The notes under the pieces were generated by a model. That model was not told the origin of the DNA and searched no databases. It saw only the letters and a list, made by a program, of their open reading frames with translations. 64,000 nucleotides of DNA from the human T2T-CHM13v2.0 reference genome, Homo sapiens. Shown one piece after another: positions 22,502 through 62,125 of this stretch; the first letter of the stretch is position 1, and each line of letters opens with the position of its first letter. The position numbers were made by a program, and so were the translations under genes. The stretch lies in the NCBI RefSeq assembly GCF_009914755.1, contig NC_060926.1, one strand, 5' to 3'.

Positions 22502-24407
22502 CAGATGGGTTTCTTGAAACTACTTTTGCTCCTGTCTGTCCTTGAGACTCAAAACATTTGTTTCTCTGGAACTAAGAAATCTTACTGAAAACCTTGCTCT
22601 AAATCCTCCTCTTTGTGGCCTATGCACTTGAATCATCTGTCTAACCAAATGCAGAAAGCTCATGATTCGTTTATTAAACTAAAATTTAGTTGTTCCCAGT
22701 TGTCCACGTACTTTCCCCTTTAAAGAGCTAAATTGTTTAAAATCAATCATTTTAGCTATTTTAGATTTTTATTCTCTTAAGCATGCCTTGTTGTGTTTTG
22801 TTTTTAATTCCTGTTTTATTCTGGGTAGAAATTGCTTCCTCACCACTCTCCTAACAACTACCAATAATTAAAAATTACCAATTTTGATCGTTTCTGTCCA
22901 TTCTTTTAGCAAGAGCATCAGATAATTCTCCATATTTATCTTTTTCCTGCATAGCCCTCTTCAGCTTCCCTATCATTTTGATTTAGAAAACAGGACAATA
23001 GCTCTGTAATGACAGTGTTCCCTCTCTCAGATCTTTACACAGCTCTCCTTGTTTTCTCCACTATGTTATGCACTTACTATTTTTGTTAAGTCCTACATTC
23101 TTTTTCAGGATGACAGCAGTTCTTTGAGCTTTAATTATGGTGTCTTAAAAAATTCTTCTGCTGCTTTCATGCTTGTAAATTTTATACTTCCTCTTATTGC
23201 ATCTTATTCACCAGATTTCCTAATTCCCCAAAATTTACTTTCTTGAAATCTGATGCCTTTGTATAGCTGTATTGTTCAAACGTACATCTTATGATTTTCA
23301 CTGTGAGTCATCTGTGGACATGGAAACCCTTTTGCCTACCTGTCTGCTATTTTCAATGATGATGTTTTCATTTCCCCTCCACCCCACTGCAGAAAAAAAA
23401 TTGTGTTATTATCTCTTTCTTGCGATTTAGAATTTGTAAAGGTAATCAAAATTATAACATATCATTAAATCAAAATTTTTTATTTATAATCAAAATGCTA
23501 TAATAATTCTCATCCTTCCATTAATCCCTCAATAGAGTAAATACCTTTATTAGAAGGATCAAGCCATCACTACCTAGCACAATGCCAAACTTTGTTTTTG
23601 ACAATCAGGAATCCATTTCTTAGTGAGACACATCTGGTCTAGAAAGAAGAAAATATTGTCTGTGATCTCACCATGAGAATCAATTGAAAAGAATTAGGGA
23701 GAAGGTTAGAGTTCCAGACAAGTTGAAAATATGCACATTAAATGCACAAGGATCTATCTTTTTAAAATAATAAGTTACAAAAAAATACAGATTTTGAACA
23801 TGGAAGAATAAAGGTTGAAACCACTTCCTAGAACAAACTTAGTTCTTGGAATTCTTTTGGCTCAAATGTACAGTTATTATTGTAAAAGTCATCATGTGCT
23901 GCAACCCTGTACGAACTTCAAAGTAAAGTTTCAACAAAGACGATTGCTCTTAGACATGAGAAAGAATATCTCGATGGAGACAAAGCAAATAACATGAATT
24001 CTGGTTGATTTGAGTAGAAAGAGAACTAGTAATTGAGAAAAAGGGTTTAACCAAAAAGATTTGAGTTCATTTGATTAAAAGTATTTTGTAAAGTCTCATG
24101 TAAGCATCCTTGAATATTAGAGTTTCTGAGGTTTATCCATCACTACTCATTTTCCAATTAACTGTACATCCTAATACCCCCTGATCCTAGTTCAATAGCT
24201 TCAGGAACTGATAATTTTGCTTCTTTTCAGAAGACATTTAAAGCTGAAGCCTTAGGATTGTGATTATTATCATTTTGTGGGTTTGAGTTTGCAATCCTAA
24301 TACTTCAGATACCTTTTATTTCTTCTGGGGCATCACTTTGGCATCAGGTAGTTTCCATCAGGTAGATTTGGGTGCAACACTGCAGATCTACTAGCTGAGG
24401 TTTTCTT

Positions 24408-24859
24408 TTTTTTTTTAATTTTTTTATTTTACTTTAAGCTCCTGGATACACGTGCAGAATGTGCAGGTTTGCTACATAAGTATACATGTGCCATGGTAGT
24501 TTGCTGCACCTATCAACCCATCATCTAGGTTTTAAGCCCCGTATGCATTAGCTATTTGTCCTAATGCTCTCCATCCCCTTGCACCCATCCCCTGACAGGC
24601 TCCAGTGTGTGATATTCCCCTCCATGTTCCATGTGTTCTCATTGTTCAACTCCCACTTCTGAGTGAGAACATGCAGTGTTTGGTTTCCTGTTCCTGTGTT
24701 AGTTTGCTGAGAATGATGGTTTCCAGCTTCATGCATGTCCCTGCAAAGGACATGAACTCATTTTTTTTATGGCTGCATAGTATTCCATGGTATATATGTG
24801 CCACATTTTCTTTATCCAGTCTATCATTGACGGGCATTTGGGTTGGTTCCAAGTCTTTG
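24408..24859 (-). mobile_element. 5'-truncated L1PA7/8-like 3' end
   Basis: ORF2 end (NEFMSFAGT...LETIILSKLTQEQ) plus 3' UTR; TSD TACTAGCTGAG(G/T)TTTTCTT at ~24389 and ~24860. Confidence 0.93.
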
Positions 24860-24929
24860 TACTAGCTGAGTTTTTCTTAAAAACTGATCATTCAATCTCG
24901 TAATAGTTCAGTTAATTTATCCCTTTACT

Positions 24930-25635
24930 AAAAGTTATAAGCATACATGTGAAATAACTGCTGCATTTGCATACACATGTTTAAAATGTTATCTATACTA
25001 TTTATCAATGAAAATGAAAAAAACTACGAAAGATACAACGTGAATAAATCTTAAAAAAAATAATGTTCAATCAGATGAACAAGAAATGAGGAATGTTCTA
25101 TTTAAAAGAGAGGGGAATGTATTCATTACAGAAGTCAATATCACATAAAAAAGCAGGAATGGATGAGGAAATATTCCAGATTAAAATAAGCTAAAGAAAC
25201 ATGACAACTAAATCCAACTGACCCTGAATTGGATCCTATATCAGAGGGGAGCCCTTCACTTGAAGAGGGGAAATTTTATAAAGGGTTATTAGGTTAATTA
25301 ACAAAATTAACAAAATTAAATTATGGACATAGATTGAATTGGATCAACGTAAATTGATGAGGTTGATAACCATACCGTAGTTATAAAAAAGAATACCCCT
25401 ATTCCTAAGAAATACACACAAAAGTATTTATGGATGAAGTGCTATGCTGTATGCAACTTATTTTCATTTAGTTCTGAAAAACTATGTACATATGGGGAGA
25501 GAAAGCACACACATGATAAAAACAGTGGGGTAATATGTTAATAATGGGTAAATCTGGGTGAAAGAAGAAGGGGTGTTCTTTGTGTATGTTTATTTTTGTA
25601 ATATTTTTGCTTTAATAAATATTAAATATTTAAAA
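24930..25635 (+). mobile_element. L1MC3/4-like 3' UTR fragment
   Basis: GGAAATATTCCAGATTAAA...ACATGACAACTAAAT...AAGAAATACACAC...GCAACTTATTTTCA...GGGTGTTCTTTGT. Confidence 0.6.
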
Positions 25636-25641
25636 GGTATG

Positions 25642-26148
25642 CTACTCGTACACTTATTACAGCATTCATTTCCTTGCTTTTCTTTACAGTTTTATGACCT
25701 AATTATGTATGCTCAAAGAATATAGTTTAATTGCCTGGTTTTGAACTTTTTGTATAAATGGAATCACACAGAGTGTGTTCTGTTGAGTATGGCTTATTTT
25801 GATCAGTCTTTTATTATTTAAAAACTACTTAGAAACAAAATTTTTAAAATTTCTATATGTTTATTTGTAATATTTATTTTAATAAGTATTAAATATTTAA
25901 TAAGTATAAAGTAAAAATATTACAAATAAACATATACAAATTTTTAAAAATTCATTTCTAAATAATTTTTAAATAATAAAAGATTGATCAAAATAAGCCA
26001 GACTCAACAGAACACATTCTGTGTGATTCCATTTATGCGAAGTTCAAAACCAGGCAAAATTAAATGATATTCTTTGAGCATACATAATTAGGTAGTAAAA
26101 CTGTAAAGAAAAGCAAGGAAATGAATGCTGTAATAGGTGTGTGAGTAG
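25642..26148. repeat. ~507 bp imperfect palindrome with no spacer (fold-back inverted duplication)
   Basis: Left CTACTCGTACACTTATTACAGCATTCATTTCCTTGCTTTTCTTTACAG is the reverse complement of right CTGTAAAGAAAAGCAAGGAAATGAATGCTGTAATAGGTGTGTGAGTAG; centre TATTAAAT|ATTTAATA at 25887-25902. Confidence 0.95.
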
Positions 26149-26352
26149 TGTAGTCTTATAATAGGATATCATAATATGACAGTGGTTACCTCTAGCAGGG
26201 AGGGGAGATTACAAAAGGGAGGGGCATGCTTAGAAATTTGGAGTGCAAGCAACATTCTATTTTGCATTCTAGGTAAAGATTACACAGATATTTGTTTTAC
26301 AATTATTAAGCTAAACATTAATATTTTATGAGCTTCTTAGTATGTGTGTTTC
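25985..26352 (+). mobile_element. L1ME/MC-like 3' UTR fragment; supplies much of the right palindrome arm
   Basis: AAAATAAGCCAGAC...TGTGATTCCATTTAT...AGTTCAAAACCAGGCAAAA...GTGGTTACCTCT. Confidence 0.65.
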
Positions 26353-26374
26353 TAAAGACAGAATAGAAGAAAGA

Positions 26375-26490
26375 GGGAAGAAGGAATGGATGGAGGAAGG
26401 AAGGAAGGAAGGAAGGAAGGAAGGAAGGAAGGAAGGAAGGAAGGAAGGAAGAGAGGAAGGGAGGCAGGGAGGGAGGGAGGGAGGGAAGGA
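26375..26490. repeat. (GGAA)n/(GGGA)n purine-rich STR
   Basis: Direct reading. Confidence 0.93.
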
Positions 26491-27039
26491 AGATGCCAAC
26501 CTACAATATACAACCTGCCTTTATAGTCTTACGGACAAGTGTAGTAGTAGCAGTAGTCCTTGTCAAGATAAGAAACTGCCAGTGAATCTTATTTTAGAGC
26601 AGAAGCCCATTATTGCTCCCAGCTTTTTGACTTAGTGCAAGCCAGAACTTCAGAGCTGTCATACATCAGTTATCACTGGAGATGGTCCAGTTGACTATGG
26701 AAACAGGTAACTGACAGGAGCAAAATCAGTAAGGTCCAACTACAGACCTGAAGAAAGTCCAGGGTAAGAAGTAGCCAATGATATCAAAAGGATGAGACAA
26801 GAAACCAATAATAACCAAAGCCTCTTCTCCCGAGGTGTGCAGCTTGACATCAACTTGAAGGAGTGTTGTGTGGTTGGATGAGGCTGTCAACACATCCAGG
26901 AGGCTGTGTCCACCTCTCCAGCTGCAGCTCCACTGCCTCTCCCTGATCTGCAGGCCCTGACCAGGTGACATGCTGCCAAACGGGGAGAGGGCGGTCCTCT
27001 TTTCTGATGCGTTTAATGTGTGCTGTCCTCCCCGACTAA

Positions 27040-27355
27040 GCCTCCTGAACTACTGTGCATCTTCGAGGTCTCAGCTCAAAGTTCGGTCCTTGTAGAAGCC
27101 TCCTCTAACTCCTTAATCTAAATCAAATCCTCTTATGATGCCCTCTTATGGCAGTCCATCTTTTCCTTCACAGTATTTATCATAGTTTGTAACTGTATAA
27201 TTATTTGTGGGACTATTTACTTTTCCACCATCCTGGAGTTCCTGACTGCCATATAATACCTATTTGATGACAGTTTTCCCAGTTTCTAACACAGTGTCTG
27301 AAACACCATACTCATGTATATTTGTAGGCTCCTGAATGAACAAATGAATGACTCA
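27040..27355 (+). mobile_element. L2 3' fragment
   Basis: TCTCAGCTCAAA...GAAGCCTCCTCTAAC...ACAGTGTCTG...TGAATGAACAAATGAATGA terminus. Confidence 0.6.
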
Positions 27356-28110
27356 TTTGTCAATCAGCCTCTCTTACATATTTCTACTCTCTCCCAAAAT
27401 AGTAGTAAGATGACCAAGTAATTGCTTAAATAACATCATTACAAACCCCTTCACTAGCCATAGTGGATTTTCAATAGCATTGGTAGATTCAAGTGAGATC
27501 ATGTTTGCAAAAGCACTTCATATATGAATGTCAGGTTTTTTTTTTTCCGATTGTTTCGAGTTCCATACTGGAGACAGACTCATTTTTTCCTTCACTTGGT
27601 AATGCCTCCCATGGGGTCGAACACATGCTGGGTGTACAATTCATCTTTGTAGGATAAATGAAAATTTAGTTTCTTAAAATAACTACTTTTCTAAGGAATG
27701 TTTTAACACATATGTGAACAAAAAAAAGAAATTAAATAGAGAAAGTGAGGTAGGGAAAATATCTGAGCAAAACTTAACTTGCTGTTTCCCCTTAAGAGTC
27801 ACCAAAGAAAACCCATCTTCAGCTCTTAAATGCTGAAAGGATTTAAGAGGAAAGGATTTAGAGGAAATAGAAAGGACAGTAGGAGATAAATGGTCTAGAG
27901 TTTAGAGACCTAGATTTTACCGATGACTGGGTTAACTTTCACCTAGCCTTCCAAGCCTTGATTAATTGCGGTCACCAGAGTTTATTTCTCCAGTTCATAT
28001 TTTGCTCTTGGAAAGTTCTACTGTAAGCTCAATAACTTCTTTAAAAGTTGTTGAAATTTGAGATTAAAATAGTGTAACCAATAACTTGTTTTACTTTTTT
28101 AAAAAGTTTA

Positions 28111-28413
<303 letters not shown>

Positions 28414-29842
28414 TTAAAGGTAAGAACTGTTGATTTACTGTTTGAAGGGGAGATCTTTCTCCACAGGAAGTCTGGGCTTGTTCTTCAATATAAAAGATTT
28501 TTTTCCTGTGGAAAGATTTCTCACGATTTTACAGATTTGAATATAGATTTGTCACTGGCGCAAACCGATGAGTGTAGTTAACTTATAATTTAGGCATGAG
28601 TCCTGTCACATTGATAGGTGCAATATAAAGGGATTCAACAATAAAATAACAGCACATAGAATAAACTGGACAGTTTCTGAAAACCACCATCTGAGCAGCT
28701 CTGCATACAGAGCTAATTGAAGAAGGGAGTTCCAACGCATCAAGTGAAGACTTATATTTTAATTTGTGCAAATGCATATAGAAACCATGAAATTAATCTG
28801 TTCTGCATTGGGTGGTACCCAAATCCATAAATTCTAAGTAATACATGGCTAATATTTCTTTAAATTATACACACACAACAGTTGGATGACAGGTGTTCTG
28901 CTTACTGACTAGTTTTGGAAATATTTCGTCTTCCATTTAAAGTAATAATTATGGACTTTTCTCAAGACACAAACTTTCCTACAAGGAAGAAAGACATATT
29001 TGTTCTGGTCCTAAAAACACCCCCATGTGCAGGCAAGGCAAACAGCAGAGTGCTGGTTAACACGGACATCCAATCTTACTGCACTGCTGTCCTCAGTTTC
29101 CTTGATGCACATTGATTAGGGTTCTAGAAACCCACACATTTTACACTGGAATGGTGCTCGTGAGTACACTTAATGAAATCTTGAAAAGCAGTTTAGAAAC
29201 ACACCCCATTCATGTTTCTATCTGTTACTTGCGTATTTTCAATGTGGAGCACTCAGGAGGTTGATAAGGAAACTGGCTAAAAAGATGTGATTCAGAATCT
29301 AAAATGAGAAAGGAAAAAGTAAAGGTTTTGCCAAGAAATCATGTGTCTACAATTGCTTGTCTGTCCTAGGCAGGGTTTGGACTATTCTTCCTCACTGACA
29401 CCATCCCCCTACCACACCCATTTCAAACTTCAGAATACAGGGGACCGAATCCCATTACTGCCTTAAAGGAATTGAGCCCCAGAAAGTTTGCAGGTATAAA
29501 GATTTGGTCCAAGTGTCCTCCTTCTGCAAGCCTAATTATTTTAACAGACATCCCTTTAACATCTATTATTTGTAAAGCTTTGGGCTATACCTGAGGCTTG
29601 AAAAATAGGCACCATGTGGTTGTGTAGTTAGGTCCTTGACCACTGCTGGTTCACAAACCTAATTTAAAGCCTGTTTTTAGAAATGAAAGAAGTTATCTGA
29701 TTTGAATCATTTAAGAGATATTAGCAAGATGCAATGTGAAAGATCAAAAATGTGGATTTAAAAGGTCATACTTAGAGAATAGAAATCATAGCTTCCTAAG
29801 GGACTTTGGAAATGCAGTAGCCTCTCATTAAAAACATCTAGG

Positions 29843-52358: not shown

Positions 52359-54406
<2,048 letters not shown>

Positions 54407-54994
54407 AACAAGATTAGAAATATTTTCATTGCTACATGACTTACAGAAGGAAAAGCTGTATGTCACTACAGAAATTCAGATTTATGCAGTCAAATCTAGA
54501 AAAAACTTTCTAATCTGTTTTGAAATCTTCCAAATGAAGAGTTTCAATTTTTTTTAACCAATCAGTTAAAAATATTTAAAAATCAGCATATTCTGATTAA
54601 TTAAAAATAAAACTAAATGACCTCCAAGAATATGAAAACTTACCAGCCAAATTCTGGTAAAAAATATTACATGATTGATGGATGACATTTAAAAATGAGT
54701 ACTATAGCTTAGAAAGCACAGTCCTAGATACACGTCTTTCATTTGAATCTACGCATCTTTGTTTTTGTTTTTTTGTTTTTTTTTTTTTTATTATACTTTA
54801 AGTTTTAGGGTACGTGTGCACATTGTGCAGGTTAGTTACATATGTATACATGTGCCATGCTGGTGCGCTGCACCCACTAACTCGTCATCTAGCATTAGGT
54901 ATATCTCCCAATGCTATCCCTCCCCCCTCCCCCGACCCCACCACAGTCCCCAGAGTGTGATATTCCCCTTCCTGTGTCCATGTGATCTCATTGT

Positions 54995-58822
<3,828 letters not shown>

Positions 58823-58885
58823 TATGATGTTAGCTGGTGATTTTGCTCGTTAGTTGATGCAGTTTCTTCCTAGTCTCGATGGTCT

Positions 58886-59902
58886 TTACATTTTGGCATG
58901 ATTTTGCAGCGGCTGGTACCGGTTGTTCCTTTCCATGTTTAGCGCTTCCTTCAGGAGCTCTTTTAGGGCAGGCCTGGTGGTGACAAAATCTCTCAGCATT
59001 TGCCTGTCTGTAAAGGATTTTATTTCTCCTTCACTTATGAAGCTTAGTTTGGCTGGATATGAAATTCTGGGTTGAAAATTCTTTTCTTTAAGAATGTTGA
59101 ATATTGGCCCCCACTCTCTTCTGGCTTGTAGGGTTTCTGCCGAGAGATCCACTGTTAGTCTGATGGGCTTCCCTTTGAGGGTAACCCGACCTTTCTCTCT
59201 GGCTGCCCTTAACATTTTTTCCTTCATTTCAACTTTGGTGAATCTGACAATTATGTGTCTTGGAGTTGCTCTTCTCGAGGAGTATCTTTGTGGCGTTCTC
59301 TGTATTTCCTGAATCTGAACGTTGGCCTGCCTTGCTAGATTGGGGAAGTTCTCCTGGATAATATCCTGCAGAGTGTTTTCCAACTTGGTTCCATTCTCCG
59401 CATCACTTTCAGGTACACCAATCAGACGTAGATTTGGTCTTTTCACATAGTCCCATATTTCTTGGAGGCTTTGCTCATTTCTTTTTATTCTTTTGTCTCT
59501 AAACTTCCCTTCTCGCTTCATTTCATTCATTTCATCTTCCATCGTTGATACCCTTTCTTCCAGTTGATCGCATCGGCTCCTGAGGCTTCTGCATTCTTCA
59601 CGTAGTTCTCGAGCCTTGGTTTTCAGCTCCATCAGCTCCTTTAAGCACTTCTCTGTATTGGTTATTCTAATTATACATTCTTCTAAATTTTTTTCAAAGT
59701 TTTCAACTTCTTTGCCTTTGGTTTGAATGTCCTCCCGTAGCTCAGAGTAATTTGATCGTCTGAAACCTTCTTCTCTCAGCTCGTCAAAGTCATTCTCCAT
59801 CCAGCTTTGTTCCGTTGCTGGTGAGGAACTGCGTTCCTTTGGAGGAGGAGAAGCGCTCTGCGTTTTAGAGTTTCCAGTTTTTCTGTTCTGTTTTTTCCCC
59901 AT
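58886..59902 (-). CDS. ORF1: L1 ORF1p (RNA-binding chaperone), intact 338 aa
   Basis: MGKKQNRKTGNSKTQSASPPPKERSSSP...REKG...ARREW...YPAKLS...QNHAKM. Confidence 0.96.
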   Translation of the reverse strand: MGKKQNRKTGNSKTQSASPPPKERSSSPATEQSWMENDFDELREEGFRRSNYSELREDIQTKGKEVENFEKNLEECIIRITNTEKCLKELMELKTKARELREECRSLRSRCDQLEERVSTMEDEMNEMKREGKFRDKRIKRNEQSLQEIWDYVKRPNLRLIGVPESDAENGTKLENTLQDIIQENFPNLARQANVQIQEIQRTPQRYSSRRATPRHIIVRFTKVEMKEKMLRAAREKGRVTLKGKPIRLTVDLSAETLQARREWGPIFNILKEKNFQPRISYPAKLSFISEGEIKSFTDRQMLRDFVTTRPALKELLKEALNMERNNRYQPLQNHAKM

Positions 59903-60808
59903 CTTTGTGGTTTTATCTACTTTTGGTCTTTGATGATGGTGATGTACAGATGGGTTTTCGGTGTGGATGTCCTTTCTGTTTGTTAGTTTTCCTTCTAACA
60001 GACAGGACCCTCAGCTGCAGGTCTGTTGGAATACCCTGCCGTGTGAGGTGTCAGTGTGCCCCTGCTGGGGGGTGCCTCCCAGTTAGGCTGCTCGGGGGTC
60101 AGGGGTCAGGGACCCACTTGAGGAGGCAGTCTGCCCGTTCTCAGATCTCCAGCTGCGTGCTGGGAGAACCACTGCTCTCTTCAAAGCTGTCAGACAGGGA
60201 CATTTAAGTCTGCAGAGGTTACTGCTGTCTTTTTGTTTGTCTGTGCCCTGCCCCCAGAGGTGGAGCCTACAGAGGCAGGCAGGCCTCCTTGAGCTGTGGT
60301 GGGCTCCACCCAGTTCGAGCTTCCCAGCTGCTTTGTTTACCTAAGCAAGCCTGGGCTATGGCAGGCGCCCCTCCCCCAGCCTCGCTGCCGCCTTGCAGTT
60401 TGATCTCAGACTGCTGTGCTAGCAATCAGCAAGACTCCGTGGGCGTAGGACCCTCCGAGCCAGGTGTGGGATATAGTCTCGTGGTGCGCCGTTTTTAAAG
60501 CCGGTCTGAAAAGCGCAATATTCGGGTGGGAGTGACCCGATTTTCCAGGTGCCTCCGTCACCCCTTTCTTTGACTCGGAAAGGGAACTCCCTGACCCCTT
60601 GCGCTTCCCAGGTGAGGCAATGCCTCGCCCTGCTTCGGCTCGTGCACGTTGCGCACACCCACTGGCCTGCGCCCACTGTCTGGCACTCCCTAGTGAGATG
60701 AACCCGGTACCTCAGATGGAAATGCAGAAATCACCCGTCTTCTGCGTCGCTCACACTGGGAGCTGTAGACCAGAGCTGTTCCTATTCGGCCATCTTGGCT
60801 CCTCCTCT
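59903..60808 (-). promoter_or_regulatory. L1 5' UTR with sense and antisense promoters; YY1 site intact
   Basis: CpG-rich 5' UTR; YY1 motif CAAGATGGCC at 60788-60797 on the minus strand. Confidence 0.88.
60358..60498 (+). pseudogene. ORF0: L1 antisense ORF0, truncated at 46 aa by TTA>TAA
   Basis: MAGAPPPASLPPCSLISDCCASNQQDSVGVGPSEPGVGYSLVVRRF* matches the ORF0 N-terminus (normally 71 aa). Confidence 0.85.

Positions 60809-61174: not shown

Positions 61175-61499
<325 letters not shown>

Positions 61500-61621: not shown

Positions 61622-62125
<504 letters not shown>

What the first reader, a model, noticed from the sequence alone, without database searches (positions are those of the whole stretch)
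25579..26148. ~500 bp spacer-less AT-rich palindrome made by fold-back duplication, with a third partial copy
Seen: 25642-25894 is the imperfect reverse complement of 25895-26148 around a perfect 16-bp centre TATTAAAT|ATTTAATA. The right arm continues into old L1M 3' UTR sequence while the left arm stops abruptly, so the left arm looks like the derived copy. In addition 25579-25614 (TTTGTGTATGTTTATTTTTGTAATATTTTTGCTTTA) is an inverted match to 25907-25940 and is followed by TATTAAATATTTAA, so the central block occurs three times. Established: long AT-rich palindromes such as PATRRs can extrude cruciforms and cause breakage. Inference: multi-step template switching seeded by the short palindrome. 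If transcribed it would give a ~250 bp dsRNA hairpin (ADAR or Dicer substrate).
Basis: partly seen in the sequence, partly recalled or inferred. Interest (0 to 1): 0.7.

Follow-up and report, generated by a model that had tools for sequence, protein, structure and literature searches.

The report
Stepwise-grown palindrome in old L1 remnants
A 507-base stretch of human chromosome 2 is a mirror-image duplication of an old jumping-gene remnant with no gap between the halves, likely made when the DNA copying machinery doubled back twice at the same AT-rich spot tens of millions of years ago, and it is probably a decaying relic without a function.

Summary
The palindrome is real: arms 25642-25894 and 25895-26148, with 228 matches, 22 mismatches and 7 gap columns. 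It is a local inverted duplication, not two insertions or a MITE. Over 150 L1-derived columns the arms are 94% identical, while the best of 28 genomic paralogues reaches 74.5%. One correction: the 'third copy' (25579-25610) is the native 3' end of a second old repeat inserted into the L1, so it is the source of the central block. The 16-bp centre is the junction of two direct copies of a 16-nt micro-hairpin. Best model: a fold-back first made a ~50-bp-arm palindrome; a second template switch (2-3-nt microhomology out, homology back) added the ~250-bp arm. One multi-switch event is not excluded. Arm distance is 0.094±0.021, roughly 30-45 My at a recalled rate. It is not a PATRR: 75% AT, 89-91% arm identity, and the central 51 nt fold no better than shuffles. 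No gene, functional element or Rfam match supports a dsRNA role. This is a known mechanism class; the modest interest is a readable record of stepwise palindrome growth, longer than catalogued short-range switches.

The parts
24995..25067 (+). Element B (old L1 3' UTR), upstream piece; interrupted here by element A
   Evidence: Profile of 28 paralogues matches model positions 531-605 here, weakly (E 0.003), and resumes at model 597 at 25977
25069..25610 (+). Element A, an old repeat with an L1-like 3' end inserted into element B (L1MC-like is a recalled label, from no call)
   Evidence: Profile of 29 paralogues, E 1.4e-85; terminus profile matches 25484-25610 to model 41-168, E 3.4e-14
25579..25610 (+).
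   Evidence: Collinear with the element-A profile; keeps the five-pyrimidine run of the paralogues that both central copies have shortened by 2 nt
25611..25640 (+). Micro-hairpin H0 (25611-25626, 7-bp arms, 2-nt loop), TA, and a partial second hairpin copy; direct duplicate of 25878-25907
   Evidence: 25627-25640 matches 25894-25907 at 12 of 14 positions, and the reverse complement of the right-arm extension at 8 of 14
25638..25641 (.). Outer junction of the long inversion, 2-3-nt microhomology (TA) shared by both templates
   Evidence: 25638-25639 match both the direct continuation and the reverse complement of 26151-26152
25642..25894 (-). Left arm (derived): inverted copy of part of element B, the putative end of element A and the central block
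25878..25910 (.). Centre: two direct copies of the micro-hairpin (H1 25878-25893, H2 25896-25910) joined by TA; the perfect 16-bp palindrome 25887-25902 spans their junction
   Evidence: both loops read AG on the + strand, so they mismatch in the long hairpin
25911..25940 (-). X3: inverted copy of X1, product of the inferred first fold-back
   Evidence: (I3, I5)
25941..25976 (+). Probable displaced remainder of element A's 3' terminus (modest support)
   Evidence: best placement for model 169-201 in 25600-26000 (9.5 bits; 8 of 500 shuffles as good); with model 172-198 it is third (7.4 bits; 16 of 500 for the region's best); score directly after X1 is -1.2
25895..26148 (+). Right arm (largely native sequence)
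25977..26368 (+). Element B, downstream piece, running beyond the palindrome to its 3' end; carries about 37 extra nt at 26138-26175 (L1ME-like is a recalled label)
   Evidence: Profile E 3.1e-52; 7 of 28 paralogue loci have L1 ORF2 homology upstream on the same strand, 0 of 28 elsewhere; extra bases

Best explanation
This is a 507-bp spacer-less imperfect palindrome made by local inverted duplication inside nested old L1-type repeats, likely by two successive replication template switches seeded at one AT-rich micro-hairpin, and it is probably a neutral, decaying relic. Shown: the arms, their local common origin, the nesting of element A in element B, the native status of 25579-25610, and the junction sequences. 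Inferred step 1: near the 3' end of element A the nascent strand folded back at the micro-hairpin, copied 30-45 nt of itself and returned, leaving a palindrome with ~50-bp arms. Inferred step 2: a polymerase that had just passed that centre jumped on 2-3 nt of microhomology to the opposite strand at about 26152 and copied about 240 nt backwards. It then returned to the forward strand through the homology of the small palindrome, upstream of where it had left (a '4 before 1' event). This gave the long left arm plus the 60-bp direct duplication 25579-25640 / 25850-25907. Since then both arms have mutated about equally, and interruptions near the centre would hinder cruciform extrusion.
For: Arms are 94% identical over 150 profile columns; best paralogue 74.5% of 28; paralogue pairs median 60.7%, maximum 75% (378 pairs); 11 shared non-majority bases; each arm matches the paralogue majority at 122 of 150 columns. 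Only the right arm continues in the profile. X1 is collinear with element A and the profile's last ~33 positions are missing after it. The two central X copies share a 2-nt deletion absent from X1 and from the paralogue columns. The hairpin loops read AA, AG, AG in direct orientation, as expected if the return switch fell before the loop. Published four-point template switches mostly make single inverted repeats, include many '4 before 1' events and sit in AT-rich DNA (PMC7954356). Inverted CNVs with one repeat-homology junction and one microhomology junction are described (PMC10766186). The central 51 nt fold no better than shuffles (z +0.56 and +0.60).
Against: The three X copies are about equally diverged (4-6 substitutions per pair over 52-58 columns), so no long interval between the steps is shown and one complex event fits too. 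The displaced element-A terminus has only modest support and loses top rank with a shorter model. The upstream piece of element B is weak (E 0.003). The AG loop could also come from a later 2-nt spacer inversion, a known outcome (PMC8604942, seen there only with arms over 9 bp). The outer junction lies inside an unexplained ~37-nt locus-specific insert. 'Inert' is not shown: in yeast, Alu inverted repeats at 94% and 86% identity are only 15- and 58-fold less rearrangement-prone than perfect ones, and at most 2-fold less in long single-stranded DNA (PMC10164571). No orthologues were available.
Confidence: 0.68

Rival explanations
1. One complex replication or repair event (MMBIR/FoSTeS-like, three or four switches in a row) made all junctions at once, with no stable small-palindrome intermediate.
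For: The three X copies are similarly diverged. All junctions lie within about 600 bp. The shared 2-nt deletion could be a slip during the first copying that was then recopied.
Against: It needs more switches in one pass. The stretch beyond the right arm does not look like a copy of the left junction (7 of 14 matches at 25628-25641), against about 91% in the arms. The homology-based return is most simply explained by a pre-existing small palindrome.
Confidence: 0.2
2. Break-initiated fold-back or ODIRA-like inverted triplication at the small palindrome, later trimmed by deletion to the present inverted duplication.
For: These routes start at short inverted repeats and leave palindromic junctions (PMC10766186 passages). 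The 60-bp direct duplication flanks the inverted segment.
Against: No third copy of the 200-bp element-B segment turned up in the own-genome search or the local repeat scan. The scale is far below the kb-Mb cases described. It needs an extra, precise deletion.
Confidence: 0.08
3. The hairpin is kept for a function (dsRNA or small-RNA source, or a structural element near PAX3), with gene conversion between the arms, so it is older than it looks.
For: Very stable predicted hairpin with a 40-bp perfect run; 9 of 13 transitions remain G-U pairable on the + strand; template switches have made new miRNA hairpins in primates (PMC10710096 abstract).
Against: The G-U bias is not significant (p 0.27). 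Changes fall on both arms and include CpG-decay patterns. No gene or functional element in the supplied annotation, no Rfam match at E 0.1 or better, and PAX3 ends about 79 kb away.
Confidence: 0.03
4. Two independent head-to-head L1 insertions, or a MITE with long terminal inverted repeats.
For: Both arms belong to an interspersed family (41 other matches). A TA dinucleotide lies at both outer ends (25638-25639, 26151-26152).
Against: 94% between arms against at most 75% between family copies. The arms share non-family sequence (the central block and part of the locus-specific insert). A search with the centre found only low-complexity TA-rich hits elsewhere (4 candidates scored). The right arm runs on as L1 beyond the palindrome. 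TA is itself palindromic.
Confidence: 0.01

Closest known systems
Short-range template-switch mutations, four-point model (Walker et al. 2021, PMC7954356; Monttinen et al. 2023, PMC10710096)
   Same: Local reverse-complement copy that creates an inverted repeat in AT-rich DNA; step 1 resembles a 3-2-1-4 fold-back and step 2 a '4 before 1' event
   Different: The copied tract of step 2 is about 240 nt, against median 12 and maximum 128 nt in their 1503 gold-standard ape events; two nested events at one seed; probably older than the ape comparisons
PATRRs (PATRR11, 22, 17, 8, 3; review PMC7999016)
   Same: Several hundred bp, no spacer, AT-rich centre
   Different: 75% AT rather than over 90%; 89-91% arm identity rather than near-perfect; interrupted 9 bp from the centre; built from L1 3' UTR sequence; no translocation found in the one paper search made
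Recombinogenic long inverted repeats (Lirex definition, PMC5414712)
   Same: Arms over 30 bp, mismatch plus gap rate 11% (under 15%), GC 25% (over 20%), spacer 0
   Different: Arises from local duplication rather than from two repeat insertions; recombinogenicity is only predicted
DUP-TRP/INV-DUP and ODIRA inverted CNVs (PMC10766186)
   Same: Inverted segment with one junction at a pre-existing inverted repeat and one at microhomology; flanking direct duplication
   Different: About 300 bp gained rather than kb-Mb; no triplicated segment; intact palindromic arms; in the reference genome and old

Membership tests
PATRR | Several hundred bp long, spacer-less | tested here: met
   507 bp, spacer 0
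PATRR | More than 90% A+T (PMC7999016) | tested here: not met
   75.3% over 25642-26148; 90.1% only over the central 131 bp
PATRR | Near-perfect arms | tested here: not met
   22 mismatches and 7 gap columns; first mismatch 9 bp from the centre; longest perfect run 40 bp; 32 bp long under an ungapped rule allowing 4 mismatches
PATRR | Cruciform extrusion and recurrent translocation breakpoints | not testable with these tools
   The centre folds no better than shuffles; a paper search for 2q36, PAX3, palindrome, breakpoint gave 0 papers
Local template-switch inverted duplication | Reverse-complement copy of nearby sequence, closer to its neighbour than to any paralogue | tested here: met
   94% against at most 74.5%
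Local template-switch inverted duplication | Switch points with microhomology or a pre-existing inverted repeat | tested here: met
   2-3 nt at 25638-25640; central hairpins and X homology
Local template-switch inverted duplication | Pre-event allele seen in an outgroup | not testable with these tools
   No primate genomes are held (no relatives); the ancestral state was inferred from paralogue profiles only
MITE / DNA transposon | Dispersed family of copies with the same terminal inverted repeats | tested here: not met
   Other matches cover only the L1 part of one arm; the centre search gave only TA-rich low-complexity hits. The search skips common words, so absence is not absolute.
Independent inverted L1 insertions | Arm divergence like that between family copies | tested here: not met
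   6% between arms against a median 39% between paralogues
L1 3' UTR (element B) | ORF2 homology upstream on the same strand in paralogues | tested here: met
   7 of 28 loci, mostly the C-terminal part; 0 of 28 elsewhere; the profile also matches the young L1 3' end at 24852-24725 (E 2e-18)
L1 3' UTR (element A) | ORF2 homology upstream on the same strand in paralogues | tested here: inconclusive
   3 of 35 loci upstream, 2 of 35 elsewhere, within 1.5-kb flanks; the subfamily label is recalled
Recombinogenic LIR (Lirex criteria) | Arm over 30 bp, mismatch under 15%, GC over 20%, arm/spacer ratio at least the mismatch rate | tested here: met
   against the criteria read; Lirex itself was not run
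miRNA / known structured RNA | Match to a curated RNA family; transcription | tested here: not met
   0 Rfam matches at E 0.1 or better in 24500-27000; transcription not testable

The most novel reading that the evidence does not exclude
The locus is a readable fossil of palindromes growing by repeated fold-backs at one AT-rich seed (7-bp arms, then ~50-bp, then ~250-bp), the route by which PATRR-like fragile palindromes could be born, followed by preferential loss of symmetry near the centre; primate orthologues would hold the intermediate stages and date each step.
Probability: 0.3. Interest if true: 0.55.

Novelty: new member of a known kind. Interest (0 to 1): 0.3.

Why it matters
Long spacer-less palindromes are rare and unstable, and their origin is usually hidden. 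Here the repeat context lets the ancestral order be read, so each switch point can be named and tested against primate genomes. The inferred ~240-nt copied tract lies between catalogued short-range switches (at most 128 nt in PMC7954356) and kb-scale inverted CNVs. It would matter more if many such loci showed nested growth or faster decay at the centre. As a single locus it has no shown function or disease link.

Tried and rejected
Chance: rejected (0 of 100 shuffles in each). Assembly or fold-back read artefact: rejected by inference, since the arms differ at 9% with CpG-type changes (TG/CA at 25953-25954). Independent insertions and MITE: rejected. Right arm re-synthesised past the left junction: not supported (7 of 14 matches). 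Source of the ~37-nt extra in element B: no convincing match within 23000-29000. Faster decay at the centre: 10 of 80 against 12 of 170 mismatches, p 0.16, not significant; adjacent mismatch pairs 5, p 0.025, uncorrected. G-U bias: p 0.27. Plain nhmmer did not place element A's last 33 positions at 25941-25976; only a targeted score did, modestly (22 of 34 paralogue ends kept after an identity and coverage filter). Background: in 204,881 bases of other fetched loci, 12 loci had near-spacer-less inverted hits. Of the 9 inspected, 5 were Alu-type pairs, 3 TA-rich low complexity and 1 a 52-bp 74% pair; L014 and L050 were not inspected and are 50 bp or shorter per arm. These loci are not a random sample, and no genome-wide frequency was measured. 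Paper searches listed nothing naming this locus; one search gave no usable primate rate, so the rate is recalled. Supplements and databases that might list the locus (S2 Data of PMC7954356, the catalogue of PMC7680136, LIRBase) were not read.

Full report
Observation. The reverse complement of 25642-25894 aligns to 25895-26148 with 228 matches, 22 mismatches and 7 gap columns and no spacer. The region folds at z about -35 as DNA or RNA, with 0 of 100 shuffles as good. It is the only spacer-less inverted repeat with arms of 60 bp or more found in the window. The third copy exists, and 25579-25640 is also a direct repeat of 25850-25907. The palindrome is 75% AT overall and 90% AT in the central 131 bp.

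Origin of the arms. An own-genome search with the right arm gave the left arm at 89% and 39 other loci at 69-88% over short stretches, the best being 84% over 107 bp. On a profile of 28 of these paralogues the arms are 94% identical over 150 columns. Either arm matches its best paralogue at 74.5%, and paralogue pairs have a median of 60.7% and a maximum of 75%. The arms share 11 bases that depart from the family majority, and each matches the majority at 122 of 150 columns, so changes fell on both about equally. This is a local duplication. The family (element B) is an L1 3' UTR: 7 of 28 loci have ORF2 homology upstream on the same strand and none elsewhere. Subfamily names (L1ME-like, L1MC-like) are recalled and come from no call.

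Ancestral order. The element-B profile matches 24995-25067 (model 531-605, weak, E 0.003) and 25977-26368 (model 597-962) on the + strand, and 25808-25657 on the - strand. The last ~33 positions of A's terminus are missing directly after it (score -1.2) and fit best at 25941-25972 (9.5 bits, 8 of 500 shuffles as good). With a shorter model that placement is third and the region's best is reached by 16 of 500 shuffles, so support is modest. The inferred ancestor is: A body, X, end of A, rest of B.

The centre and junctions. The centre consists of two direct copies of a 16-nt micro-hairpin (7-bp arms, 2-nt loop; 25878-25893 and 25896-25910) joined by TA; a third copy lies at 25611-25626. The 16-bp perfect palindrome is their junction. 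The loops read AA, AG, AG on the + strand, so the two central loops mismatch in the long hairpin. Bases 25627-25640 match the direct continuation of the centre at 12 of 14 positions, then the sequence switches to the inverted arm with 2-3 nt matching both templates. The two central X copies share a 2-nt deletion that X1 and the paralogue columns lack.

Mechanism (inferred). Step 1: a fold-back at the micro-hairpin inserted a 30-45-nt inverted copy of X, giving a palindrome with ~50-bp arms. Step 2: after passing that centre, the polymerase jumped to the opposite strand at about 26152, copied about 240 nt backwards, and returned through X homology upstream of its exit point. This explains the long arm, the 60-bp direct duplication, the shared deletion and the loop orientation together. 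A pure inverted copy followed by a 2-nt spacer inversion is an alternative for the loop (PMC8604942, passages). The three X copies are similarly diverged, so the steps were close in time or part of one event; only orthologues can decide. The outer junction falls within ~37 nt that paralogues lack (anchor distance 51 against 11-14 in the four paralogues with both anchors in register); this is unexplained.

Age and fate. The Kimura distance between arms is 0.094±0.021. At a recalled primate neutral rate of about 1.1-1.5e-9 per site per year this is roughly 30-45 My, with wide error, and older if the arms converted each other. The arms are more alike than Alu pairs in the window (mostly 77-85%) and less alike than its young L1 pair (96%). 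The first mismatch lies 9 bp from the centre, and the central 51 nt fold no better than shuffles on either strand, which would hinder cruciform nucleation. Against full inertness, yeast data show 15- and 58-fold lower rearrangement rates at 94% and 86% identity, but at most 2-fold lower in long single-stranded DNA (PMC10164571, passages). Nothing indicates function: no gene or element in the supplied annotation, no Rfam match, no significant G-U bias.

Comparison with known kinds. It works like a four-point template switch; such events mostly create single inverted repeats, include '4 before 1' cases and favour AT-rich DNA, but the gold-standard ape set has a maximum copied tract of 128 nt (PMC7954356, passages and first part of section 8). 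It fails PATRR membership on AT content and arm perfection (PMC7999016, passages). It meets the Lirex criteria for a recombinogenic long inverted repeat; that paper reports 4 such among 656 repeats in a 7.08-Mb contig and 'over 100' genome-wide (PMC5414712, part 1 of 2 of the text). Under the ungapped four-mismatch rule of PMC7680136 (passages) it would count as only 32 bp, so that catalogue's 718 palindromes over 200 bp would not include it. Inverted CNV models share the junction logic at far larger scale (PMC10766186, passages). PMC10710096 was seen as abstract and outline only. The one search aimed at the locus gave 0 papers; supplements were not read.

Verdict. Real, uncommon and mechanistically legible, but a new member of a known kind with no sign of function. 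Interest 0.3. No genome-wide frequency was measured, so its rarity rests on the window, 205 kb of non-random loci and the papers above.

Noticed in passing
window 52372-54400 (+) and 54760-60807 (-): Two young L1 copies lie tail to tail: a 5'-truncated 2-kb copy and a full-length 6-kb copy, each with flanking direct repeats, 1949 of 2031 columns identical (96%), about 350 bp apart. The full-length copy has open frames of 374 aa (58886-60010) and 1137 aa (55400-58813). As an inverted repeat this pair is longer and more alike than the finding's palindrome.
   Followed up: partly
window 24389-24878: A 5'-truncated L1 3' end on the - strand (about 24401-24862) with a 19-bp target-site duplication at 24389-24407 and 24860-24878 (D6).
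   Followed up: no
window 26138-26175: About 37 nt in element B that paralogues lack, containing a 7-bp direct repeat (26131-26137, 26159-26165); the palindrome's outer junction falls inside it; source not found nearby.
   Followed up: partly
window 26376-26492: GGAA-type purine microsatellite, 29 copies, about 230 bp from the palindrome's right end; such tracts can form triplex DNA (recalled).
   Followed up: no
window 61255-61418 and 61839-62002: Inverted pair of 164 nt, 92% complementary, 420 nt apart, in masked repeats; probably two Alu copies.
   Followed up: no
L072:882-985: A small non-Alu, non-simple inverted pair with ~52-bp arms (74%); possibly another local template-switch product.
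   Followed up: no
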